Shown piece by piece: positions 3,669 through 62,234 of a DNA stretch of 64,000 bases. Source of the stretch: Euryarchaeota archaeon UBA487. Lineage in GTDB: Archaea; Thermoplasmatota; Poseidoniia; Poseidoniales; Thalassarchaeaceae. The translations under genes and the position numbers were made by a program. The DNA lies in contig DAVU01000013.1 of the NCBI GenBank assembly GCA_002505695.1, positions 27,300-91,299 on the forward strand. The letters run 5' to 3'. How positions within the stretch are numbered: the stretch's first letter is position 1; the number at the start of each line of letters is the position of its first letter. The notes under the pieces were generated by a model. It made no database searches. It saw nothing but the letters and a program-made list of their open reading frames with translations, and had not been told where the DNA came from.

Positions 3669-6600
3669 GTGGCGAGTGCGGGCTCAACAAGAGGAGCTGT
3701 GAAAAAAAATGGTAGGGACGTGCCTATCAGGGTGATCACTGCGGCTGCCATTTTCGACGGCCATGATGCTGCCATTGGAATATTCAGGAGAATCTTTCAA
3801 TCAATGGGCTGTGAAGTGATTCACCTTGGCCATGATAGAAGTGCTGAGGACGTAGCCAAGGCTGCCATACAAGAAGACGCGCATCTCATTGCAATCACCT
3901 CCTACCAAGGAGGTGCGGTGGAAATGTTCACACACACCAAGAACCTTCTCAATGCTGCTGGCTTTGGTCATGTCGTTCTAGTCGGCGGGGGTGGCGGCAC
4001 AATACTCCCATCTGAGATAAGGCACCTTCGAGACTCAGGGATCGCGAGAATTTACTCACCGGACGACGGCAGAGAGTTGGGTCTGACCGGCATGGTCCAA
4101 GACGCGATCGACCTCGTCTCTGATCTTGATCTAAACTCAGAATCGAGGTTTAGAAACCTAGAACATATTACCTGCGATGACCAAGGAGGGGTATCCAGAC
4201 TGCTGACTTATGCCGAAAACCATGGATCGAACCTCCATGGTGCCACTGGTGAGGAGAAAGCTGTCTGCCCTGTTATCGGACTCACCGGAACCGGGGGGGC
4301 TGGCAAATCGAGCCTCACGGATGAGTTGGTACTCAGAATAATGAGGGACAATCCCGACACCAAAATAGCGCTCTTAGCGACAGACCCCACGAGGAAAAGG
4401 ACGGGTGGAGCTCTACTTGGTGATAGAATACGGATGAACTCACTGAGAAAGGATGGGACTTTCATGAGGTCGTTTGCCAGCAGGGATAGCGGCAGGGAGC
4501 TCTCGAACGCCATAGGTAGGTCCATCGAGGTCTGCAGATCAGTTGGCTTTGACCTACTAATCGTCGAGACTAGTGGCATCGGACAGGGTGACGATGCCAT
4601 CACAGACATATCGGACGTTTCACTGTATGTGACCACTAGGGAATACGGGGCTCCAAGCCAACTGGAGAAGCTAGCAGCACTGGATTTCGCTGACGTCGTT
4701 GTGCTGAACAAGTTTGACCGACCAGGGGCAGAAGACGCCTTGTTGGAAATAAGAAAACAAGTCCGAAGAAATCGAGAATTGTGGGATCATGATGATTCGG
4801 ATCTACCCGTGATCCCGACAGTGGCTAGTCGATTTGCGGATGCGGGGGTGGACAGGCTCTGGGAAAAGGTTTCTACCCTGATCAACGAGAGATTCTCAAC
4901 GCAATTCATTGCATCAAAAGCTCGAATGTCCGATGATGGGCTACCTGAGCGGTCCCAGCCGTTGCCCCCATCTCGCCACGGTTATTTATCCGAGGTATCA
5001 AAATGCATCAGAGATTATCACGAAAAAACTGAGGCTCAGGCGATTCTTGCAAGCTTAATTCAAGACCTAGAGAACTCCGCTTCAAGGATGAGGGATTCTG
5101 GTAAAACGGAGGCGTCTTTGGATCTGCAGGAGGAGGCTGACAGACTCAGGGCAGAATTGGGCCGGGAAGTCATCGATAGTCTAAGCCTGTTGGACCAAAT
5201 CTCCGAGGATTACTCTTCTGGAAAGACGGATTACCTCGTCAGAGGGAACAAGATAGAGGTCAACACCACCAAGAAGACGCTATCGGGATTGGATCTCCCA
5301 AGAGTTGCACTTCCCACAACGTCGGATTGGGGGGATCGCGTCAGGTGGATTCGGTCAGAAAACCTGCCCGGTGCCTTTCCATACACTGCAGGTGTTTTTC
5401 CTTTCAAACGCGAGGACGAGCTTCCAGTTCGAATGTTTGCTGGCGAGGGTTCTGCGGAAAGGACCAATGAGAGATACCATTTCTTGGCCAACGATCAACC
5501 CTTCAATAGGCTCTCTGTTGCCTTTGATTCACCCAGCCTGTATGGTCATGACCCTGCCACCCAACTAGACATATTCGGGAAAGTCTGTGAATCCGGAGTC
5601 TCAATAAGCACCATTGATGAGATGGAAAGATTGTTTGATGGATTCAATCTCTGTGCTCCTGAGACTAGTGTCTCGATGACGATAAATGGGAACTATTGGT
5701 GGCATCTGGCAGCCTTCTTCCGTGTCGCTCAACGGCAACAAATCAGGATTTTTACAAAGGAAAACGGAAGAGAACCGAATGCGACCGAGGTTGAGGAAAT
5801 CAAGGCTTTCACCCTCTCGAACGTAAGAGGTACCGTACAGGCAGACCAACTCAAAGAGGCGATGGGCCAGAACACCCTCGTATTCAACCTAGACACATCT
5901 CTCCGAATGATGGGTGATGTTGCTGAATTCTATGTCAACAATGGCATAAGGAATCATTACTTCGTTAGCATATCTGGTTATCACATTGCAGAGGCCGGAG
6001 CCAATCCAATTACACAGGCCGCCCTCACGCTGGCTAATGGTCTTACATACGTCGAATTATTCAAGGCAAGAGGTCTTGACCCAGATCAGTTCCTACGAAA
6101 TTTCTCTTGGTTCTTCTCAAATGGCATGGACCCAGAGTATGTCGTAATTGGCAGGGTCGCGAGACGTATATGGTCTATAGCAATGCGCGAGATGTACAAC
6201 GTAGGTGAAAGAGGTCAGAAACTCAAGTATCACATCCAGTCCTCAGGAAGGTCACTGCATGCTCAAGAGTACACATGGAACGACTACCGAACTACCCTTC
6301 AAGCTCTATATGCATTGGCGGATAACGCAAACTCCCTCCATACCAATAGCCGGGATGAGGCATTCGGGACGCCCACGGAGGGGACTGTCAGAGATGCAGT
6401 TGCAATCCAACTCATCCTATCAAAGGAGTATGGATTGCTGCAAAATGAGAATCCGCTGCAAGGGTCACACATAACCACATGGCTAACTGAGAATGTCGAG
6501 GCCCAGATACTGAAAATTTTTGAAGAAATGAATCGAAGAGGAGGGGTCTTGGGGTCTCTGGAGGTTAATTATCAGAGGAATCGAATTCAAGATGAGTCGA

Positions 6601-54524: not shown

Positions 54525-54599
54525 GCGAGCGTAGTGTAGTGGTTATCACCTGGCGTTGCCAACGCTAGAACCCGGGTTCAAATCCCGGCGCTCGCACCA
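54525..54599 (+). tRNA. tRNA-Gly (anticodon GCC), CCA encoded
   Basis: Acceptor GCGAGCG/CGCTCGC, anticodon stem TGGCG/CGCTA with loop TTGCCAA, T-arm CCGGG-TTCAAAT-CCCGG, then A-CCA. Followed by a T6 run. Confidence 0.9.
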
Positions 54600-54609: not shown

Positions 54610-57600
54610 TTATTCGTCAGACATGAAGACTCTAATCAGCACGCCCATTCCGGCTATTGCGACAAATGCAGTTGACAGGATGGCAATGATTTGCATGTTT
54701 CCGTTAAACCAACTATTCCCAGAAACTGAATTATCCTGTTCTATGGCAAGCTGGTGTGATTGCTCACTCAGAGGGGTCATTGATTGGTATATGTCAAAGG
54801 ATCTGATTTGTATATCTATCAGCCCGGGCCCGAGACTCGATCTTGCTTCGAAGATTATGGTGTATATTCCGTCTCCGGCATTCCTATCACCATTCTCTCC
54901 ATCGTCATTAAGTGACAGCCATTTTTCTGAAGACCCAATAGGGGCGAGTCTGCCTATTTTTGCCTGTACTACTGAAACGCCGTCTGGATCGTCAACACCT
55001 ACCTCAATAATATGTGCCGCAGGGCTTTCATTTGCGGACAATATGATTGATTCCGTCATGATGAAGTTAGTCGATTTCTCATCATATTTGGAGAGTGATA
55101 TCGGAGTCATTGAAGGAGGTTCATTCAAGATAACGAAGGATAGTTCGCCATTTGGAGATTCTTTGTGGATTGTTCTAGCACCGAAATTATCAACCAAAAT
55201 TACATTGAACGTTATTTCTCCTGGCCTAACCCCATAAGGCATCATGGTGGTCGCAGTCCAAGATCCGCCCTCCGGCTGCAAGTTTACTTTCTCCCCCCCA
55301 TAATTCCGAAGGTCGACGAAAATCTCGGAGATACCGTGTTGGTCGAAGGCAGATACTCCAATCGAGAATTGGTCCCCCCTAAACAGTCGATTTGCGCTTC
55401 TTTGTAGATCCGAAACCCTCGGACCTGGGTTTGTTAATTCCAGTGAGGATTGCTCAGTTATCGTAACCCATATGTCACTGACGTAAATGGTCACATTGAA
55501 ATCACCAAAAAACGGGCCATCTGAATTGACCTTCGTCGTCCAAATATCGTCGTGGATTACCTGATCTCCACTCAGTCCGGAGTCGGACAACTCAACCAAG
55601 CCGAGTCCTGCTTCAGTTAGATCGAGAATTACATTAGATACATCGGTGTTTGGGTCCTCCACCAAGATTTCGATGTGTGCTTCACCTCCCTCAGACTCCC
55701 ATATAGCCTCCCTGTAAGAGACTTGAACTACTTGTGGGGGAGTGTTCTCGGCAGCAGTTATGATGGATGGCCTTAGGACTCTGTCAACAATTTGAGACTC
55801 AGTGAAAATTGCAGTAGAATTCGAGTCCTCCTCAATCTGTATTTCTCGGGTGCAATTAATTATCAATCCTGCGAGTACCCCCTCGTTCACTGTGCTACCA
55901 GAGGATTGCCCGACTCCAGGATAATGACCAATCCATTCCGCTGAATTTACAGAGTGCCCATCAATTTGGTTAATTGAAGACGTGTTAGTAACTGTTATGC
56001 TCATTGAGACCCTTCCATTGTTAACGAGATCTATTTCATCACCTACTACCAGAATATCAGGAACAAACCCAGATTCTCTGCTGACATTGGAAGAAAGAAC
56101 AGGAACAGACTCAGGAGGAATCGGATCGAGAATGACTGGGCTGTCTCTTGGGAACTCATTGTTGATCGAGCCATCGTCTTCAACGAATCTATACCTGATT
56201 ATCGGAGATTCCCAATCAATATTCGGTGTCATATATTCAAACGTCAAATTGTGATCTGAGTACAGTGACTGGCCAGGTATGGTAACTTGTGATCCAGATA
56301 CATTGAACCAGTACTCATTCCTGATTACCAGGACATCATGCTCCACGCCCTCTGAGTTCAGTTGTTTGCCACTATCGCTGATCATCCTGACTGAGCCGAA
56401 TGATCCTGATACAGTTCCAGTGTATATGCCATCCAAAAGTAATGTGTCTTCAACTAATACGCCGTTAATTTGTTCGGTGTGTAGATTGTCTATTGTGCCA
56501 TTGACCTCTATCTCAACGCCATTTTCATCTTCGATCAGAACATCAAACCTACCATCTCCTCGGAATCTGAGATGCTGTTGAGTCCGAGAGGAGTTCTCCC
56601 ATGTTTCCCTGAAGATGAACTCATCAAGTTCAAAGTCAATATTGTCTGATCCGAATTCAATCAACGCAGAGGCCATGGCCTCTATCCAGAGGTCTTGCTT
56701 CACCCTTTGGCCAGCGATGTCCATGACCTCAAATCGTAATAGTGAAACTTCACCATCTAAATCCAATCTTCCATCTTCATCTGAATTCAAGCTAATTGAT
56801 CCATTGGCCTCTAGAATTAGATGCTCCGATACGACTCCATTTTCAAGTGAACGAGTGTATGAGGCGTCACTCACAGTTCCATTTACGCTTATTCCATTCA
56901 ATCCGTCATCTAGAGTCACGAATATAATTCCAGAGCCTCTGAGTTGGAAGTCCTGTCTCAATAGTTCGCTTTCACTCCAAGATTCATTAATCCATGCGTT
57001 GGTGATTTCAAGTCCTAGTTCGATGGATCTTCCATCATTTTCGAAGAGGAGCTCTATTGTTCCATTACCCAGTTCATTCGCATTGAGGATTGATTGCTGG
57101 CGTTGCTGCCATCCCCTTGCATTCACCTCCAGATAGGCCGCCTCATCGTTGGATTGGAGGGACCAAGAAGTCTCCCTGGTTATCTCGTGGTCTAATGTTG
57201 GTTGATTCCAGACGCTTACGTCGAAAGATCTGTTGCAACTGGCTTCGGAGGATTGAACATCGATAACTATTGTATCCCCGAACTTTGGGGCATTTGACAT
57301 TTGTATGTCTATGGCTCCCCCTGCTACTAGGACGGTATGTGTCCCTATTTGTTGCGAGTTCCCATCAATGTGAGTGGCTGATACATCAACGTTCGTTGGA
57401 TCCACTGATATGGGAAGAGGGGGTTGAAAGTTAACTCTGTATGAATGGCCTACTATCACTTGATCTTCTTCATCCAACGAAGCGTTCCAATCTGCCGTTA
57501 TTTCGCAGGCCCTATGTTCATCAAACTCATTGATTTGTCCGTAAGCGGACATCGAAGACAATGAGATCGAAAACGTCAGGAGCGCCAGAAAAAGAGCAAG

Positions 57601-57618
57601 GAAGGACTTGTTCTTCAT
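54610..57618 (-). CDS. Large (1002 aa) secreted, C-terminally membrane-anchored surface protein
   Basis: N-terminal signal peptide 'MKNKSFLALFLALLTFSISLSSMSAYG'. Acidic, Ser/Thr/Asn/Asp-rich beta-type body. C-terminal TM 'IIAILSTAFVAIAGMGVLIRVF'. Confidence 0.6.
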   Translation of the reverse strand: MKNKSFLALFLALLTFSISLSSMSAYGQINEFDEHRACEITADWNASLDEEDQVIVGHSYRVNFQPPLPISVDPTNVDVSATHIDGNSQQIGTHTVLVAGGAIDIQMSNAPKFGDTIVIDVQSSEASCNRSFDVSVWNQPTLDHEITRETSWSLQSNDEAAYLEVNARGWQQRQQSILNANELGNGTIELLFENDGRSIELGLEITNAWINESWSESELLRQDFQLRGSGIIFVTLDDGLNGISVNGTVSDASYTRSLENGVVSEHLILEANGSISLNSDEDGRLDLDGEVSLLRFEVMDIAGQRVKQDLWIEAMASALIEFGSDNIDFELDEFIFRETWENSSRTQQHLRFRGDGRFDVLIEDENGVEIEVNGTIDNLHTEQINGVLVEDTLLLDGIYTGTVSGSFGSVRMISDSGKQLNSEGVEHDVLVIRNEYWFNVSGSQVTIPGQSLYSDHNLTFEYMTPNIDWESPIIRYRFVEDDGSINNEFPRDSPVILDPIPPESVPVLSSNVSRESGFVPDILVVGDEIDLVNNGRVSMSITVTNTSSINQIDGHSVNSAEWIGHYPGVGQSSGSTVNEGVLAGLIINCTREIQIEEDSNSTAIFTESQIVDRVLRPSIITAAENTPPQVVQVSYREAIWESEGGEAHIEILVEDPNTDVSNVILDLTEAGLGLVELSDSGLSGDQVIHDDIWTTKVNSDGPFFGDFNVTIYVSDIWVTITEQSSLELTNPGPRVSDLQRSANRLFRGDQFSIGVSAFDQHGISEIFVDLRNYGGEKVNLQPEGGSWTATTMMPYGVRPGEITFNVILVDNFGARTIHKESPNGELSFVILNEPPSMTPISLSKYDEKSTNFIMTESIILSANESPAAHIIEVGVDDPDGVSVVQAKIGRLAPIGSSEKWLSLNDDGENGDRNAGDGIYTIIFEARSSLGPGLIDIQIRSFDIYQSMTPLSEQSHQLAIEQDNSVSGNSWFNGNMQIIAILSTAFVAIAGMGVLIRVFMSDE

Positions 57619-57665: not shown

Positions 57666-58070
57666 TCAGAAGAGTGGTTCGTCCCAGTCATCCTCTTCGC
57701 CGGCCTTCTCACGCCATACTGTTTGGGGGACGTCTTCATATAATCCAGCATATGGGTCCTCTTCCTCCTCGTTTTCATCTCCTCTTCCGACATATTGGCT
57801 GGCGTTTGGCTTGAATTTCCAATAGTGGATTCTCCATTCCCTGCCATCCCATAGTGTGGTCTCTTCAGACTCTGTGGTTAGTAAATCATAATCTTGTAGT
57901 TGATAGAAAAGGTTCCTGTCATTGGGTTCCAAGGCATTGTCTATGATCCGGTTTGAAAAACCGAAAAAGCCCAAGGCATGCTCGGCAATGGATTCTGCAA
58001 CACTGACCTCCATGTCAGCGTCAACCCTATTTCGAATGGCCTGTGTCAAATCTTGGAGCTTTAGACCCAT
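57666..58070 (-). CDS. Hypothetical small acidic protein
   Basis: 134-codon ORF with a strongly acidic C-terminus. No family recognised. Confidence 0.4.
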   Translation of the reverse strand: MGLKLQDLTQAIRNRVDADMEVSVAESIAEHALGFFGFSNRIIDNALEPNDRNLFYQLQDYDLLTTESEETTLWDGREWRIHYWKFKPNASQYVGRGDENEEEEDPYAGLYEDVPQTVWREKAGEEDDWDEPLF

Positions 58071-59073: not shown

Positions 59074-59478
59074 TTGTTTAAAATCAATATTGAGGTTCCC
59101 AATAGCGAGGTATTCCTCGCCCTGAGGAAGAAAGCAGGAATGGGTCCAAGGTCTATCGAAGGTGCCGAAAAAGGGTTAGGTAGGGAGTTGTTTTCAGTAC
59201 TATTGGAACATGTTCCGACTGGTGAGATCGTTGGAATGGGCCGCATTGTGGGAGATGGAGGGACGGTCTTCCACGTGTGTGACATGGCGGTTTTGCCCGA
59301 GTACCAGAGGATGGGCGGTGGAAGTCTGATAATGGCTGAAATTATGAATTTCATAGATCGAGAGGCCCCGTCTGATTCTTATGTGAATCTGATGGCGGAT
59401 GTCGATGGATTTTATGAAAAATGGGGCTTTGAGAGAACCTCTCCGAGATCCAAAGGGATGGCATTCAAAGTCAAGTGA
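59074..59478 (+). CDS. GNAT family N-acetyltransferase
   Basis: 'VLPEYQRMGGGSLIM' (Q/RxxGxG/A acetyl-CoA motif) and 'FYEKWGF'. TTG start. Confidence 0.65.
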   Translation: MFKINIEVPNSEVFLALRKKAGMGPRSIEGAEKGLGRELFSVLLEHVPTGEIVGMGRIVGDGGTVFHVCDMAVLPEYQRMGGGSLIMAEIMNFIDREAPSDSYVNLMADVDGFYEKWGFERTSPRSKGMAFKVK

Positions 59479-59488
59479 TTTTTATTTT
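59479..59488 (+). terminator. Oligo-T (TTTTTATTTT) directly after the GNAT stop
   Basis: Read directly. A typical archaeal termination signal. Confidence 0.4.
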
Positions 59489-59518
59489 ATGTAGTCAATA
59501 AATTTTTATTGACTACAT
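59489..59518. promoter_or_regulatory. Perfect 14+14 bp inverted repeat with AT core (candidate TATA box/operator of the cop operon)
   Basis: ATGTAGTCAATAAA-TT-TTTATTGACTACAT. The centre (59503/59504) is about 28 nt upstream of ATG 59532. Confidence 0.55.
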
Positions 59519-59531
59519 TACAGCCTCATAC

Positions 59532-59711
59532 ATGCCCAGAGTCCACGCAGAGACTTGCGATTGTGATTGCAAGATGAAGAGATTGTACGTACGAGCAGAT
59601 GGCGGCAAGGGTTGGAAGAGTGTTGGTTGGATATGCTTGTGTGGGTGTGGTTGCATAAATTTGGACCAAGGGTCTTGGAAATTAATGGAATGTTATAGCA
59701 AGGGGAGGTGA
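59532..59711 (+). CDS. Small Cys-rich protein (59 aa), candidate metal-binding leader gene of the cop operon
   Basis: My own translation: MPRVHAETCDCDCKMKRLYVRADGGKGWKSVGWICLCGCGCINLDQGSWKLMECYSKGR, with 8 Cys. The TGA stop overlaps the copA GTG (GTGA at 59708-59711). The promoter spacing fits a leaderless start. Confidence 0.5.
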   Translation: MPRVHAETCDCDCKMKRLYVRADGGKGWKSVGWICLCGCGCINLDQGSWKLMECYSKGR

Positions 59712-62023
59712 TTGAGTTGAGCTCGAATGATCTGTCGCTGAGTGTGACCGGGATGACGTGTGCTGCATGTGTTTCCTCTGTGGAGCGTGTTTTGAGCAGC
59801 ATTGACTTTGTGGAATCCGTTAGCGTGAATCTGCCCTTGGAAAAGGCTGTCATTTCAATCAAAGGAGAGGTGTCTTCGGAGACGGTCGAAAATTGCATTA
59901 AAGTGGTCGAGAAGGCCGGTTTTGGAGCCGTCGAGATACTTCCAGCATCCAGAGTCAGGGAAAACAATGAGCTCGAGTTGAAAAGAAAATATCACCAAGT
60001 AGTTCTCTCATTTACACTGACCTTGCCCGTGTTTTTTTTGTCAATGGTCGCCCCAGACATGGGTAGAGTTGGATCACTGGACTTACGGCTGTTCTTGGCT
60101 ATGTTGGCATCCTTGCCGGTTTACTTTGTCTCGGGGGCTACCTTCCACAAAAACGCATGGAAATCGATTTTGAGGGCGTCTGGAAACATGGACGTCCTAA
60201 TTCACCTTGGGACTTCAGTCGCAATGCTTTGGTCTTGTTCTGTGGTTTTGGGGCCTCTAACACCCATAATTCCTGATTTCATACGCTCAGCAGATCATGT
60301 ATTCTTTGATGGTGCTGCCTTCATCATCTCTTTCGTACTTCTAGGAAATTTCCTCGAGGGTCGTGCGAAGCTCAAGGCTACGGACGCAGTTCATAACCTA
60401 ATGAGATTACAACCGACTGAAGTACAGGTCGTCATTGGGGACGAACTGGCACCAATGTCTATTGAAAACGTTGAGAAAGGGTCATTGGTGAAGGTTATCG
60501 CAGGCGGGATAATACCCTTGGATGGATTTATTCAACAAGGGTTTGGAAGTATTGATGAGTCCATGATGACAGGCGAATCACTTCCAAGTCACAAGAAAGC
60601 TGGAGACGTGGTCTTTGCCGGTACGACTGTTCTAGACACAACAATTGTTGTTCAGACTACTTCTTTGGTGGGCGATACCGCGTTGTCGAATATTATTCGT
60701 TTGGTTGACGAGGCCCAGATGGGGAAGGCACCGATTCAAAGGCTCGTTGATAGGGTTGCTAGGATTTTTGTCCCTACAGTATTGGCATTATCTCTCTCGG
60801 CGTTCCTGTTTTGGCTGATCATTGGAGATTCGTTTTTGAGAGACGTTGGAGGTGACATGACCTCGAGTGAGATGGCTGTGATGGCCCTTGTTAGTACGTT
60901 GGTCATTGCATGTCCCTGTGCATTGGGGCTAGCCACTCCAACGGCACTAGTCGTTGGCACGGGGGTTGGAGCGCGAAATGGCCTCTTAATCAAGGGAATA
61001 AAAGCATTAGAGTCGTCCTACAAAAGTGAGATCGTGGTGTTGGACAAAACAGGGACCATCACAGAGGGGAAGCCTCGCGTGATCGAAGTTCGTGAACTTA
61101 GTGGGAATCCTGGGGAGGCCCTGCGCGTGGCTGCTGCTCTGGAGAGTGAGTCTAGTCACCCACTTGCCAGTGCTGTAAATGATGCTTGGAAGTCAATGGG
61201 TCTTGAGGCTCCAAAAGCTATTGACGTGAAGACGTTGGTTGGTTCAGGATTGACTGGCGAAATAGAGGGCCTTGAGGTTGCGGTAGGGAATCTTGACCTG
61301 ATTCGGAGCATGACTACGAGCATTCCTCCTGAAGTGGAGGCAGAGATTTCGGAGAAGAGCGCCTCTGGTTCGAACGTGATTCTTGTTTCTAGGGATAGAA
61401 ATTTGATTGGATGGATAGAAATCCGTGATACAATTCGAAATAACTCGCCATCAGCAATAGCAAGAATGCAGGCCATGGGCGTCGATGTGATCATGTTGAC
61501 GGGAGATAGGCACGAAGTGGCTCATTTCGTTGCCTCAGAAGTCGGAATAAGGAGAGTCATATCAGGTGTCAAGCCCGAGGAGAAGGCTGAGGCTGTACGC
61601 CGACTTCAACTCGAGGGTGTGGTGACAATGATCGGTGATGGAATCAACGATGCTGCTGCATTGACTGTCGCAGACGTAGGTATCGCCATGGGGGCTGGGA
61701 GTGAGGTCGCTCTGGATTGTGCAGATATCGTATTAGTTGGTGATGATTTATCCCATGTTTTGTCTGTTATACAATTAAGTCGGGCCACTATGAATAAAAT
61801 AAGAAGTAATCTTGTTTGGGCATTTCTCTACAACATTCTGGGCATTCCGATGGCAATGGGGGTTGTTTATCCATGGACAGGTTGGCTCCTTCCCCCTGCC
61901 TTTGCGGCTGCAGCGATGGCCTTGTCATCCGTTAGCGTAGTGCTAAATTCCCTTCTCTTGACCAGATGGAGGCCCGTGGACTTAGACTCGAGCAACATTA
62001 GAAAAGCGAATACCCCTCTCTAA
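59708..62023 (+). CDS. copA: Copper-translocating P1B-type ATPase
   Basis: HMA domain 'GMTCAACVSSVE', 'CPC' in TM6, 'DKTGTIT', 'GDGINDAAAL', TGES ('MMTGESLP'). The start is GTG 59708 or TTG 59717. Confidence 0.9.
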   Translation: MIELSSNDLSLSVTGMTCAACVSSVERVLSSIDFVESVSVNLPLEKAVISIKGEVSSETVENCIKVVEKAGFGAVEILPASRVRENNELELKRKYHQVVLSFTLTLPVFFLSMVAPDMGRVGSLDLRLFLAMLASLPVYFVSGATFHKNAWKSILRASGNMDVLIHLGTSVAMLWSCSVVLGPLTPIIPDFIRSADHVFFDGAAFIISFVLLGNFLEGRAKLKATDAVHNLMRLQPTEVQVVIGDELAPMSIENVEKGSLVKVIAGGIIPLDGFIQQGFGSIDESMMTGESLPSHKKAGDVVFAGTTVLDTTIVVQTTSLVGDTALSNIIRLVDEAQMGKAPIQRLVDRVARIFVPTVLALSLSAFLFWLIIGDSFLRDVGGDMTSSEMAVMALVSTLVIACPCALGLATPTALVVGTGVGARNGLLIKGIKALESSYKSEIVVLDKTGTITEGKPRVIEVRELSGNPGEALRVAAALESESSHPLASAVNDAWKSMGLEAPKAIDVKTLVGSGLTGEIEGLEVAVGNLDLIRSMTTSIPPEVEAEISEKSASGSNVILVSRDRNLIGWIEIRDTIRNNSPSAIARMQAMGVDVIMLTGDRHEVAHFVASEVGIRRVISGVKPEEKAEAVRRLQLEGVVTMIGDGINDAAALTVADVGIAMGAGSEVALDCADIVLVGDDLSHVLSVIQLSRATMNKIRSNLVWAFLYNILGIPMAMGVVYPWTGWLLPPAFAAAAMALSSVSVVLNSLLLTRWRPVDLDSSNIRKANTPL

Positions 62024-62027
62024 AATT

Positions 62028-62234
62028 ATGACAACAGAGCATGTGATCGAGGTTGTTGGGATGACCTGTGGCGGTTGCTCTGCAAGGCTTGAAAGGGTAT
62101 TTATGGGGAAATCAGGCATTATCTCTGCTGAAGTGGATCATGAATATGGTCGAGCAATAATTCATGCAGATGACTCAGTGACTATGCGTGATATTATGGA
62201 AATTGTGCAATCCACAGGGTTTGACCTCAAGTGA
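62028..62234 (+). CDS. copZ: Copper chaperone (HMA domain)
   Basis: 'VVGMTCGGCSARLE'. 68 aa, 4 nt after copA. Confidence 0.8.
   Translation: MTTEHVIEVVGMTCGGCSARLERVFMGKSGIISAEVDHEYGRAIIHADDSVTMRDIMEIVQSTGFDLK

What the first reader, a model, noticed from the sequence alone, without database searches (positions are those of the whole stretch)
59489..59711. Hidden 59-codon Cys-rich ORF, apparently leaderless from a palindromic TATA/operator and GTGA-coupled to copA
The 229-bp gap between the GNAT gene and copA is not empty.

- **ORF.** An ATG at 59532 opens a 59-codon frame, one codon below the 60-aa cutoff of the supplied track. It encodes MPRVHAETCDCDCKMKRLYVRADGGKGWKSVGWICLCGCGCINLDQGSWKLMECYSKGR.
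- **Cysteines.** It has 8 Cys in 59 residues, clustered as CDCDC and CLCGCGC.
- **Coupling.** Its TGA (59709-59711) overlaps the copA GTG (59708-59710). This is the classical 4-nt GTGA translational-coupling arrangement.
- **Promoter.** A perfect 30-bp palindrome (59489-59518, ATGTAGTCAATAAA TT TTTATTGACTACAT) has its AT core centred about 28 nt upstream of that ATG. This is the canonical archaeal TATA-to-TSS distance, so a leaderless mRNA starting at the small ORF is predicted.
- **Domain hint.** The spacing C13-X21-C35-X3-C39 is compatible with the TRASH/YHS-type C-X19-22-C-X3-C metal-binding pattern found in archaeal cop loci. The rest of the sequence is not a typical TRASH domain.
- **Missing regulator.** No CopR/CopT/CsoR-type regulator is encoded next to copA-copZ.

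Hypothesis: a new small metallopeptide (chaperone, sensor or buffering peptide) heads the cop operon, and the palindrome is the operator of a trans-encoded metal regulator that competes with TBP.
Basis: partly seen in the sequence, partly recalled or inferred. Interest (0 to 1): 0.72.

Follow-up and report, generated by a model that had tools for sequence, protein, structure and literature searches.

The report
Conserved Cys-rich mini-protein heading archaeal copA
The "empty" gap before the copper-export pump gene of this marine Group II archaeon holds a real, strongly conserved 59-residue cysteine-rich protein gene of an undescribed family, with its own conserved promoter and palindrome; it is probably a new copper-handling or copper-sensing component.

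Summary
I found 48 distinct homologues in Marine Group II (Poseidoniales) genomes and metagenomes. Pairwise dN/dS is 0.03-0.09 in the proposed frame only. In 48 of 55 loci an HMA-domain ATPase ORF begins within -8 to +15 nt of the small gene's stop, whatever lies upstream. The promoter geometry is conserved: TATA at -29..-22, half-site TTGACTACA at -23..-15, C at -1, then ATG. That geometry predicts a leaderless mRNA. A distal inverted half-site TGTAGTCAA lies 9-16 nt upstream of the proximal one.

- The GTGA overlap is part of copA's Shine-Dalgarno sequence (GGAGGTGAT). copA most likely starts at TTG 59717.
- The palindrome is 14+2+14, not a perfect 30-mer.
- TRASH/YHS membership is not supported by HMM or profile comparison.

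The family matches nothing in Pfam, NCBIfam or PDB, and every database name is "hypothetical protein". The AlphaFold model (pLDDT about 72) shows a beta-hairpin flanked by Cys clusters, which looks zinc-ribbon-like.

Best reading: a small Cu(I)/Zn-binding protein that is the first cistron of a leaderless, operator-controlled cop operon. Metal binding and the operator role are inferred, not shown. A self-repressing copper sensor is not excluded.

The parts
59479..59488 (+). T-run TTTTTATTTT directly after the GNAT stop codon; a plausible archaeal oligo-T terminator of the upstream gene
   Evidence: Read from the sequence. The role is inferred from general knowledge of archaeal termination. It is not conserved in loci with other upstream genes.
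59490..59498 (.). Distal half-site TGTAGTCAA (-42..-34 relative to the A of the ATG)
   Evidence: Both half-sites are present in 15 of 17 protein-derived loci, with one mismatch in L009 and in L013; L140 keeps only this distal half-site. Its distance to the proximal half-site varies: 9-16 nt between the 9-mers.
59503..59510 (+). TATA box TTTTTATT (-29..-22). The family consensus is TTTATATT.
   Evidence: Consensus of 52 unique upstream regions anchored on the ATG, with T/A at 71-96% per column.
59509..59517 (.). Proximal half-site TTGACTACA (-23..-15), between the TATA box and the start
   Evidence: It ends 13-15 nt (mostly 14) before the ATG in nearly all loci.
59489..59518 (.). Inverted repeat as a whole (14-nt arms, 2-nt spacer); candidate operator sandwiching the TATA box
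   Evidence: As RNA it would fold at -14.6 kcal/mol, z = -5.5.
59532..59711 (+). Small Cys-rich protein gene (59 aa plus stop); predicted leaderless first cistron
   Evidence: 48 unique homologues. dN/dS is 0.03-0.09 in this frame and pN/pS is about 1 or more in the other frames.
59704..59712 (+). Shine-Dalgarno sequence GGAGGTGAT for copA, embedded in the last codons and stop of the small gene
   Evidence: 9-nt match to the anti-SD complement. SD-like matches of at least 6 nt occur in 19 of 48 loci against 9 of 205 control windows.
59717..62023 (+). copA, a P1B-1 Cu(I)-ATPase; likely TTG start. The longest mechanical ORF starts at GTG 59708.
   Evidence: Pfam HMA, E1-E2_ATPase and Hydrolase domains. 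The CPC, YN and MALSS motifs are read from the translation. An ATG sits at the homologous position in L005/L026.
62028..62234 (+). copZ, a 68-aa HMA metallochaperone
   Evidence: Pfam HMA, E = 2.9e-11.

Best explanation
**What it is.** The 229-bp gap holds a genuine protein-coding gene. Its product is a small metalloprotein of about 60 residues from an undescribed family so far seen essentially only in Marine Group II archaea (Poseidoniales).

**The protein.**
- The family consensus is M-[PA]-R-[VI]-x-A-x2-C-x-C-x-C-K-M-K-R-L-Y-x-R-A-[DE]-G-G-K-G-W-x2-[VI]-G-W-x-C-x-C-G-C-G-C-x3-D-x-G-x-W-x-L-x2-C(-C).
- The predicted fold is a central beta-hairpin (residues 14-21 and 28-35) flanked by the two Cys clusters, so it looks zinc-ribbon-like.
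- I infer that four Cys (C9 or C13, C35, C39) hold a structural Zn. The surplus thiols are C11, C37, C41, C54/55 and, in many relatives, a C-terminal -CC. I infer that these bind Cu(I) as a small thiolate cluster.

**How it is expressed.**
- The gene is the first cistron of a small-gene/copA/copZ operon.
- Transcription starts at or next to the A of its ATG, giving a leaderless mRNA. The promoter has its TATA box at -29..-22.
- The TATA box is bracketed by the inverted half-sites TGTAGTCAA and TTGACTACA.
- The proximal half-site (-23..-15) lies where archaeal repressors block RNA polymerase recruitment. I therefore read the pair as the operator of a metal-responsive repressor.
- Translation of the small gene ends inside copA's Shine-Dalgarno sequence. 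copA then starts at TTG 5 nt later, so the two are tightly co-translated.

**Likely function.** Cytosolic Cu(I) capture or buffering and hand-over to CopZ/CopA, made in step with the pump.

**Shown and inferred.**
- Shown: the gene is real and under purifying selection, it is linked to copA, and the promoter/operator geometry is conserved.
- Inferred: leaderless initiation, operator function, metal binding and the physiological role.
For: **The gene is real.**
- Six GTDB genomes carry it. There are 29 representative hits at E<=0.001, 7 of them at E<=1e-10, and 52 cluster hits.
- There are 48 unique sequences.
- dN/dS is 0.03-0.09, with synonymous sites near saturation. Variable columns by codon position are 17/10/40.
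- Across 42 coding sequences, mean pairwise identity by codon position is 0.79/0.90/0.48.
- The loci span GC 0.37-0.66, so the conservation is not a composition effect.

**Linkage to copA.**
- In 48 of 55 loci an ORF with the HMA motif GM[TS]CxxC starts -8..+15 nt from the stop.
- The upstream flank differs between loci: GNAT here, RNB or a divergent 430-470-aa gene elsewhere.
- The window copA carries the Cu(I) P1B-1 signatures.

**Promoter.** Consensus anchored on the ATG, n = 52:
- TTTATATT at -29..-22.
- TTGACTACA at -23..-15.
- C at -1 in 83%.
- An A-rich BRE-like stretch at -40..-33.
- No SD-like consensus in the -14..-1 stretch.

**Operator specificity.**
- The repeat is unique in 64 kb.
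- Every MGII locus I recognised among the palindrome hits of the metagenome scan has the small gene 13-17 nt (mostly 14) downstream.
- The palindrome follows the small gene even where copA is absent (L015, L071, L041, L142).

**SD coupling.**

**Hints of metal chemistry.**
- Cys columns are invariant or nearly so.
- Cys-rich tails ending in -CC occur in many relatives.
- One lineage has an extra ORF with about 19 Cys inserted between the promoter and the small gene.

**Fold.** AlphaFold pLDDT 73 and 71, with the same beta-hairpin in both models.
Against: - There is no direct evidence of metal binding. All Cys could be structural (Zn or Fe-S).
- Some subfamilies lose C11 and C41 (CELGC...CGCGS). 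So only C9, C13, C35, C37, C39 and C54 are near-universal.
- A minority of members head other operons or stand alone (L015/L071; L041/L142/L143).
- No known domain matched: Pfam, NCBIfam, PDB by sequence, Foldseek.
- The half-site spacing varies (9, 10, 11, 14, 15 or 16 nt). That is awkward for a rigid dimeric repressor.
- L140/L141 lack the proximal half-site, and L016 has two direct copies instead of an inverted pair.
- No transcript or TSS data were available.
Confidence: 0.6

Rival explanations
1. The small protein is itself the copper sensor and autorepressor. In its Zn (or apo) form it binds the TGTAGTCAA / TTGACTACA half-sites as monomers or a loose dimer flanking the TATA box. Cu(I) loading of the CxC clusters then releases it, by analogy with Zn-to-Cu(I) exchange in the CxCx4CxC motif of CopY or the polycopper switch of yeast Ace1.
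For: - The palindrome and the small gene co-occur whether or not copA follows.
- The palindrome was not seen before any other MGII gene among 120 scanned loci.
- No conserved regulator gene lies in the neighbourhood.
- The protein has a conserved basic stretch (K14-M-K-R17, R21, R3), read from the alignment.
- Variable half-site spacing is easier to reconcile with independently bound small monomers.
- The subfamily lacking the proximal half-site also carries Cys substitutions (L140).
Against: - There is no recognisable DNA-binding fold, and no precedent for a 60-aa Cys-rich archaeal metalloregulator.
- An operator is expected to travel with the first gene of an operon whoever the regulator is, so the co-occurrence does not discriminate.
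- Only exact-match palindromes were scanned, and only about 12 kb per genome was held, so a regulon elsewhere could be missed.
Confidence: 0.17
2. The protein is a redox or Fe-S/Zn accessory rather than a Cu(I) buffer. For example, it could reduce Cu(II) to Cu(I) or keep CopZ/CopA thiols reduced, like the Cys-rich Zn/[2Fe-2S] N-terminal domain of Archaeoglobus fulgidus CopZ.
For: - It has nine conserved Cys in about 60 residues, with conserved aromatic residues and a folded beta core. That is unlike classical metallothioneins.
- An archaeal CopZ-family chaperone able to reduce Cu(II) to Cu(I) is known (cited in PMC7830388).
- One subfamily sits beside a cytochrome-b-like gene and secreted proteins instead of copA.
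Against: - There is no sequence or structural similarity to any solved protein, including CopZ entries.
- CxC/CC spacing is more typical of Cu(I)/Zn thiolate sites than of Fe-S ligation (general knowledge).
Confidence: 0.12
3. The inverted repeat acts as an RNA or DNA hairpin rather than a protein operator. It could be a terminator or insulator for the upstream gene, or a 5' stem-loop.
For: - The predicted RNA hairpin is strong: -14.6 kcal/mol, z = -5.5.
- The loop length between the arms is free to vary, at 9-16 nt.
- In the window a T-run precedes it, directly after the GNAT stop.
Against: - In many loci the upstream gene is divergent, so there is nothing to terminate.
- The position is fixed relative to the downstream ATG, not to the upstream stop.
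- The arms are conserved in sequence across GC 0.37-0.66. Changes are uncompensated: the L009 and L013 inner position, and the L013 A-to-G.
- L016 has direct rather than inverted copies, and L140 has only one arm.
- The loop holds the conserved TATA box.
Confidence: 0.08
4. The ORF is a chance open frame in a GT-rich 5' UTR or regulatory RNA and is not translated.
For: - A frame of this length arises in about 3% of shuffles.
- The Cys codons sit in GT-rich stretches.
- The closest relative L001 has a frameshift, and L002 and L006 stop early.
Against: - dN/dS is 0.03-0.09 in this frame only. There are 48 distinct intact homologues at 50-96% identity while third positions are nearly randomised.
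- There is no Rfam match.
Confidence: 0.02

Closest known systems
Archaeal cop gene cluster (CopA + chaperone CopM/CopZ + regulator CopR; Ettema 2006, as summarised in PMC7830388)
   Same: A P1B Cu-ATPase with a small metallochaperone gene, plus a dedicated cis-element at the promoter. A small metal-binding protein is co-transcribed with the pump.
   Different: - No CopR (HTH + TRASH) gene is adjacent.
- The extra small protein is neither HMA nor detectably TRASH.
- The cis-element TGTAGTCAA-N9-16-TTGACTACA flanks the TATA box. It differs from the P. furiosus CopR motif TTNNCAWWWTGNNAA, which lies upstream of the BRE.
TRASH/YHS domain proteins (CopM/CopT; Pfam PF04945, PF08394)
   Same: Small size, association with the archaeal cop locus, and a Cys spacing compatible with C-X19-22-C-X3-C (C13-X21-C35-X3-C39).
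   Different: - No HMM hit for any of 33 members tested.
- hhalign probability is 0.2% against a YHS-type consensus.
- CxCxC / CxCxCxC clusters and a conserved W-rich hairpin are not TRASH features.
Zinc-ribbon mini-proteins (e.g. archaeal Trm112, RNA polymerase Rpa12/Rpb9 ribbons, haloarchaeal small zinc-finger proteins)
   Same: Two Cys clusters flank a beta-hairpin in the AF2 models. Rare distant relatives carry plain CxxC...C-x3-H/C. The only thematically coherent Foldseek hits are zinc ribbons.
   Different: Those hits are not significant (E = 3-9). The knuckles are CxCxC rather than CxxC, and there are 4-5 surplus Cys.
Copper metallothioneins and Cu-thiolate switches (MymT, yeast Cup1/Ace1, CopY C-terminal CxCx4CxC)
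   Same: CxC and CC motifs, small size, and co-regulation with copper efflux. The possible Zn-to-Cu(I) exchange logic is recalled from general knowledge and not tested here.
   Different: - Only about 15% Cys.
- Four conserved aromatic residues and a predicted folded beta core.
- No sequence similarity.
- No winged helix as in CopY.

Membership tests
TRASH / YHS metal-binding domain | Cys pattern C-X19-22-C-X3-C | tested here: met
   C13-X21-C35-X3-C39. C35 and C39 are invariant and C13 is present in at least 90% of 23-46 aligned members. A pattern match alone is weak evidence.
TRASH / YHS metal-binding domain | Significant match to Pfam YHS (PF04945) or Arc_trans_TRASH (PF08394), or profile similarity | tested here: not met
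   No Pfam family at E<=1 for the window protein and E<=5 for 10 relatives. hhalign of the family profile against a YHS-type consensus gave probability 0.2%.
HMA / CopZ metallochaperone | Ferredoxin-like fold with an MxCxxC loop; Pfam PF00403 | tested here: not met
   No HMA hit. There is no CxxC motif, and the AF2 model is all-beta. A genuine HMA copZ lies downstream at 62028-62234.
Metallothionein | Very high Cys content, (near) absence of aromatic residues, and no stable fold without metal | tested here: not met
   8 of 59 residues are Cys (14%). Y19, W28 and W33 are invariant or nearly so, and W49 is common. A beta-hairpin is predicted at pLDDT about 80. No Pfam MT family hit.
Zinc ribbon | Two Cys knuckles flanking a beta-hairpin, binding one Zn | tested here: inconclusive
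   The topology fits: strands 14-21 and 28-35 lie between C9-C13 and C35-C41. Foldseek has no hit at E<=0.001. Weak hits include Rpa12, an Rpb9-like subunit and Trm112. Zn binding is not testable here.
CopY/BlaI-type copper repressor | N-terminal winged helix plus C-terminal CxCx4CxC; operator TACAnnTGTA | tested here: not met
   No winged-helix or Penicillinase_R Pfam hit. The protein is only 59 aa. The repeat has TGTA...TACA at its outer ends, not the cop box.
Leaderless archaeal promoter | TATA box centred about 26-27 nt upstream of a TSS that coincides with the start codon, and no SD | tested here: met
   TTTATATT at -29..-22, C at -1, an A-rich BRE-like stretch at -40..-33, and no SD-like consensus in -14..-1, across 52 unique upstream regions. 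The TSS itself is not testable with these tools.
P1B-1 Cu(I)-ATPase (for the downstream copA) | CPC in TM4, YN in TM5, MxxSS in TM6, N-terminal HMA | tested here: met
   ACPCALG, LYNILG and MALSS are read in the translation. Pfam gives HMA, E1-E2_ATPase and Hydrolase.

The most novel reading that the evidence does not exclude
The 59-aa protein is a new class of archaeal metalloregulator. It would be a helix-turn-helix-less, zinc-ribbon-like Cu(I) sensor that binds the two TGTAGTCAA half-sites bracketing its own TATA box. It would release them when its CxC thiolate clusters load Cu(I), and so autoregulate a leaderless cop operon in one of the most abundant archaeal groups of the surface ocean.
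Probability: 0.17. Interest if true: 0.85.

Novelty: new variant of a known kind. Interest (0 to 1): 0.62.

Why it matters
Marine Group II archaea are abundant, still lack a routine culture system, and their metal homeostasis is essentially undescribed. I found no paper linking Poseidoniales with copper.

This result adds a missing, conserved component to their only obvious copper-efflux operon. It defines a new family of small proteins that gene callers often miss or mis-start. It also supplies a precise promoter/operator model that can be tested against existing ocean metatranscriptomes.

If the protein binds Cu(I), it would be a Cys-rich copper-handling protein in archaea with no detectable relation to the HMA or TRASH chaperones. 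If it is the sensor, it would be a new regulator architecture.

It also shows that tight "overlaps" such as GTGA can be by-products of a Shine-Dalgarno sequence embedded in the end of an upstream gene.

Tried and rejected
- **Rfam** on the gap. Only sub-threshold miRNA-like hits to the hairpin. The whole window gave two tRNAs only.
- **Pfam, NCBIfam and PDB sequence searches** of the protein and its relatives. Nothing found, apart from a stray CbrC hit at E = 0.005 and viral nucleoprotein hits at E about 0.5, both judged to be chance.
- **Foldseek** of two AF2 models against PDB. No hit at E<=0.001.
- **TRASH/YHS profile comparison.** Negative.
- **Search for the wider family through the distant CxxC relatives.** Only the four queries themselves came back. 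Two of them sit in phage-like or uninformative short contigs, so they say nothing about function.
- **IMG/VR scan.** No relative found.
- **Looking for the regulator.**
  - The HTH_20 gene next to the ATPase in L013 has no homologue in the window or in other loci.
  - 20 small window ORFs contain no metal regulator.
- **Literature search for the half-site sequence.** Only primer matches.
- **Metagenome palindrome scan.** It also pulled in an unrelated long hairpin repeat from low-GC contigs, plus chance hits. These were discarded.
- **GTG 59708 as the copA start.** Rejected in favour of TTG 59717.
Full report
**1. What is in the sequence.**

The gap between the GNAT gene (stop at 59476-59478) and copA holds the following, in order:
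- a T-run, TTTTTATTTT;
- an inverted repeat with 14-nt perfectly complementary arms (59489-59502 and 59505-59518) around a 2-nt TT spacer;
- 13 further nucleotides;
- an ATG at 59532 that opens a 59-codon frame ending at TGA 59709-59711.

The repeat is 14+2+14, so it is not a strictly perfect 30-mer. It is the only perfect inverted repeat with arms of at least 10 nt and a spacer of at most 6 nt in the 64 kb window. Its half-site has no other near match in the window. An ATG frame this long appears in about 3% of dinucleotide shuffles of the gap, so the ORF alone proves little.

**2. The organism.**

Pfam hits across the window include fibrillarin, PCNA, TBP and a TFS-type zinc ribbon, so this is an archaeon. 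Related loci come from MAGs labelled Euryarchaeota/Methanobacteriota archaeon and Candidatus Poseidoniaceae. Database names for the protein include "Poseidonia sp." and "Thermoplasmatota archaeon". The window is therefore from Marine Group II (Poseidoniales).

**3. The ORF is a real gene.**

A first protein search found two close relatives in the same arginase-GNAT-smallORF-copA context. The DNA alignment showed that most differences from the more distant of the two fall on third codon positions. Further searches gave:
- six GTDB species genomes, at 69-96% identity;
- 29 representative proteins at E<=0.001, 7 of them at E<=1e-10;
- 52 clusters from a profile search.

A DNA scan for the palindrome in metagenomes brought many more loci. 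In all I collected 48 distinct protein sequences.

Over the 45-codon core of nine sequences, variable columns by codon position are 17/10/40. Pairwise dN/dS is 0.03-0.09, with synonymous sites close to saturation. The same calculation in the other two frames gives pN/pS of about 1 or more. Over 42 unique coding sequences, mean pairwise identity is 0.79, 0.90 and 0.48 at codon positions 1, 2 and 3. The host loci range from 37% to 66% GC. This is strong purifying selection on the protein in exactly the proposed frame.

**4. The C-terminal tail.**

The tail D45-x-G-x-W-x-L-x2-C54(-C55) is also conserved in most members. There are exceptions:
- The nearly identical TARA contig L001 has a 1-nt insertion and a C37Y change.
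- L002 and L006 stop early.
- The window protein itself has Y where relatives have C55.

**5. The family.**

The consensus is M-[PA]-R-[VI]-x-A-x2-C-x-C-x-C-K-M-K-R-L-Y-x-R-A-[DE]-G-G-K-G-W-x2-[VI]-G-W-x-C-x-C-G-C-G-C-x3-D-x-G-x-W-x-L-x2-C(-C).

- In the 23-sequence alignment A3, the invariant residues are A6, C9, M15, R17, Y19, R21, G24, G25, G27, W28, G32, W33, C35, C37, G38, C39 and D45. C11, C13, C41 and C54 are present in at least 90% of members.
- In the larger alignments, C9, C37, Y19 and D45 are nearly invariant rather than invariant, and C11 and C41 fall below 90%.
- Some subfamilies replace C11 and C41 (CELGC...CGCGS).
- Many members carry longer acidic, Cys-rich tails that end in -CC.
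- Nothing matches in Pfam, NCBIfam or PDB sequences.
- All source names are "hypothetical protein".

Two AlphaFold2 runs (33 and 46 sequences) gave mean pLDDT 73 and 71. Both show the same beta-hairpin, strands 14-21 and 28-35, with a short third strand at 42-44. The two Cys clusters therefore flank a hairpin, as in a zinc ribbon. Foldseek against PDB gave no hit at E<=0.001. The only thematically coherent weak hits are zinc-ribbon subunits: Rpa12, an Rpb9-like subunit, Trm112 and ZCCHC4.

Rare distant relatives keep the MPR-A-C...M-R-L-Y-V-R-GGKG-[WY]-GW-C core but have plain CxxC...C-x3-H/C ligands. Those whose contigs I could see are in phage-like or uninformative short contigs, and none is in IMG/VR. 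I read the MGII family as a Cys-enriched offshoot of a small zinc-ribbon-like scaffold. This is an inference.

**6. TRASH?**

The spacing C13-X21-C35-X3-C39 does fit the published TRASH pattern. However, no member hits the YHS or TRASH models. A profile comparison against a YHS-type consensus gave probability 0.2%. Membership is not supported. A similar mode of action, with a Cys knuckle, hairpin and Cys cluster binding metal, remains possible.

**7. Linkage to copA.**

In 48 of 55 loci an ORF with the HMA motif GM[TS]CxxC starts between -8 and +15 nt of the small gene's stop. It is usually followed by a 70-aa HMA copZ. The upstream neighbour changes between lineages: GNAT here, an RNB exoribonuclease or a divergent 430-470-aa gene elsewhere, and a large InhA-like protein in L013. 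The conserved association is therefore with the pump. The window CopA has the CPC, YN and MALSS signatures of Cu(I) P1B-1 ATPases.

There are exceptions:
- L013 and L014 have the ATPase about 70-120 nt downstream, followed by an HTH_20 gene and a zinc-ribbon gene.
- The L015/L071 variant is not followed by copA.
- The "MRVKAEVCNCGC" subfamily heads an operon of a 165-aa membrane protein and a 196-aa secreted protein, next to a cytochrome-b-like gene.

**8. The GTGA "coupling".**

The window has a 9-nt match to the anti-Shine-Dalgarno complement, GGAGGTGAT (59704-59712), and GTGA lies inside it. The in-frame TTG at 59717 is 8 nt from the GGAGG core. In L005 and L026 an ATG occupies that homologous position (TGAATG, N-terminus MSSNDLSL). 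In L003 and L132 a TTG does. SD-like matches of at least 6 nt occur around the stop in 19 of 48 loci, against 9 of 205 control windows inside copA.

So copA most likely starts at TTG 59717, and the GTG of the longest ORF is an artefact. The real and conserved feature is that the small gene terminates in or next to copA's ribosome-binding site. This fits co-transcription and close translational coupling. It also explains why the last two or three residues of the small protein (-KGR, -GGD, -DGD, -GGE) vary.

**9. Promoter and palindrome.**

I anchored 52 unique upstream regions on the ATG. This gives:
- TTTATATT at -29..-22 (T/A at 71-96% per column);
- TTGACTACA at -23..-15;
- C at -1 in 83%;
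- an A-rich BRE-like stretch at -40..-33;
- no SD-like consensus in -14..-1.

A TATA box centred about 26 nt before the A of the ATG, with a pyrimidine-purine step at -1/+1, is the geometry expected for a leaderless archaeal mRNA.

Among 17 loci found through the protein, and so unbiased with respect to the palindrome, 15 have both half-sites. L009 and L013 each carry one mismatch. The proximal half-site ends 13-15 nt (mostly 14) before the ATG. The distal half-site floats: the spacer between the 9-mers is 9, 10, 11, 14, 15 or 16 nt.

Two informative variants exist:
- L140 and L141 keep only the distal half-site plus the TATA box.
- L016 and L017 have two direct copies of the proximal half-site in front of an inserted, extremely Cys-rich extra ORF.

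Every locus I recognised as MGII among the 120 palindrome hits has the small gene 13-17 nt (mostly 14) downstream. I did not see the palindrome in front of any other MGII gene. The remaining hits were an unrelated long hairpin repeat in low-GC contigs, plus chance matches.

**10. Operator or hairpin?**

As RNA the repeat would fold stably (-14.6 kcal/mol, z = -5.5), and a free loop length would suit a hairpin. Several points argue for recognition of the DNA sequence by a protein instead:
- The arms are conserved in sequence across a 29-point GC range.
- The few changes are uncompensated.
- One lineage has direct copies and another has a single arm.
- The upstream gene is often divergent, so there is nothing to terminate.
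- The "loop" holds the TATA box.

The proximal site lies between the TATA box and the start, where archaeal repressors typically block RNA polymerase recruitment (general knowledge). The variable spacing is unusual for a rigid dimer and remains unexplained.

**11. Who binds it?**

No regulator gene is conserved near the operon. The HTH_20 gene of L013 has no homologue in the window or the other loci. Twenty small window ORFs include no metal regulator. Either the regulator is encoded elsewhere, or the small protein regulates itself. The strict pairing of palindrome and small gene, even where copA is absent, keeps self-regulation alive. I give it about 0.17.

**12. Comparison with known systems.**

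The canonical archaeal cop cluster is CopA plus a chaperone (TRASH CopM or HMA CopZ) plus CopR (HTH + TRASH). In P. furiosus the CopR motif is TTNNCAWWWTGNNAA, upstream of the BRE (PMC7830388). Here CopA and an HMA CopZ are present, CopR is not adjacent, and the cis-element is different. There is also an additional small Cys-rich protein of an undescribed family.

It is not a metallothionein in the strict sense: it has 14% Cys, conserved aromatic residues and a predicted fold. It is not HMA, and it is not detectably TRASH. Functionally it most resembles small Cu(I)-thiolate proteins and switches with CxC and CC motifs. That resemblance rests on general knowledge and was not tested here.

**13. 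Verdict.**

A new small Cys-rich protein does head the cop operon from a conserved, apparently leaderless, palindrome-flanked promoter.
- The GTGA coupling and the TRASH assignment do not hold.
- Metal binding, the operator function and the identity of the regulator remain inferences.
- It is a new variant of a known kind, of moderate to good interest.

Noticed in passing
L016 about 189-368 (also L017): An extra 58-aa ORF, MAEQQPCCTEENCYPDCCANGEECCVNCNCDCPENCCGQIIETKQEVETTCCIKNNCC. It has about 19 Cys, many as CC pairs. It lies between the promoter and the small-gene homologue, upstream of copA. It is preceded by two direct copies of the proximal half-site (..TTGACTACAATAAC.. and ..ATGACTACAATAAC..). 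It looks like a true metallothionein-like peptide.
   Followed up: partly
L142 5438-6750, L143 2166-3478, L041 2564-3297: A subfamily of the small protein (MRVKAEVCNCGC...) keeps the palindrome but heads a different operon. That operon has a 165-aa membrane protein and a 196-aa secreted protein with GCTCHG and HRGGFNL motifs and no Pfam hit. It lies beside a Ni_hydr_CYTB cytochrome-b-like gene, and there is no copA.
   Followed up: partly
L140/L141 about 5940-6000: The subfamily with C11->L and C41->S retains only the distal half-site TGTAGTCAA plus the TATA box. The proximal half-site is replaced by CATGCCCTG. This may be co-variation between the protein and the operator.
   Followed up: no
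L013 8071-8963: In one lineage the ATPase (892 aa, weak HMA) is followed by an HTH_20/ArsR-like regulator (161 aa) and a 131-aa multi-zinc-ribbon protein (TackOD1-like). This is a candidate local regulator, but it has no homologue in the window.
   Followed up: partly
L001 4550-4717; L002 1132-1269; L006 6001-6147; window 59694-59696: Close relatives carry damaging changes. L001 has C37Y plus a 1-nt insertion that frameshifts the tail. L002 and L006 have early stops after or near D45. The window itself has Y55 where relatives have C55. This could be assembly error, or relaxed selection on the tail in this clade.
   Followed up: partly
L020-L023, L029, L030, L032 and many others: An unrelated, highly repeated long hairpin, TGTAGTCAAACACAACTTAAGTTGTGTTTGACTACA, occurs in low-GC metagenome contigs (Ga0123352-7, Ga0131853, Ga0136643). 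It looks MITE-like and shares the outer 9-mers by coincidence.
   Followed up: no
L144 2000-2188; L146/L147: One rare distant relative with plain CxxC ligands (P0012) sits in a tightly packed phage-like gene array next to a Dam methylase and DUF5710. The other (P0029) sits among unannotated small genes on short contigs. The scaffold may have a mobile-element origin.
   Followed up: partly
window 54610-57618 (-), 54525-54596 (+), 57666-58070 (-): Upstream of the arginase-GNAT pair lie a 1002-aa secreted or anchored repeat protein, a tRNA gene and a DUF6015 protein. The DUF6015-arginase-GNAT block is conserved in L001.
   Followed up: no
PMC7830388 (P. furiosus): In Pyrococcus the gene most strongly induced by copper (290-fold) is a newly annotated small hypothetical gene, pf0738.1n, next to the cop cluster. 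This parallels the idea that unannotated mini-proteins are part of archaeal copper responses.
   Followed up: no
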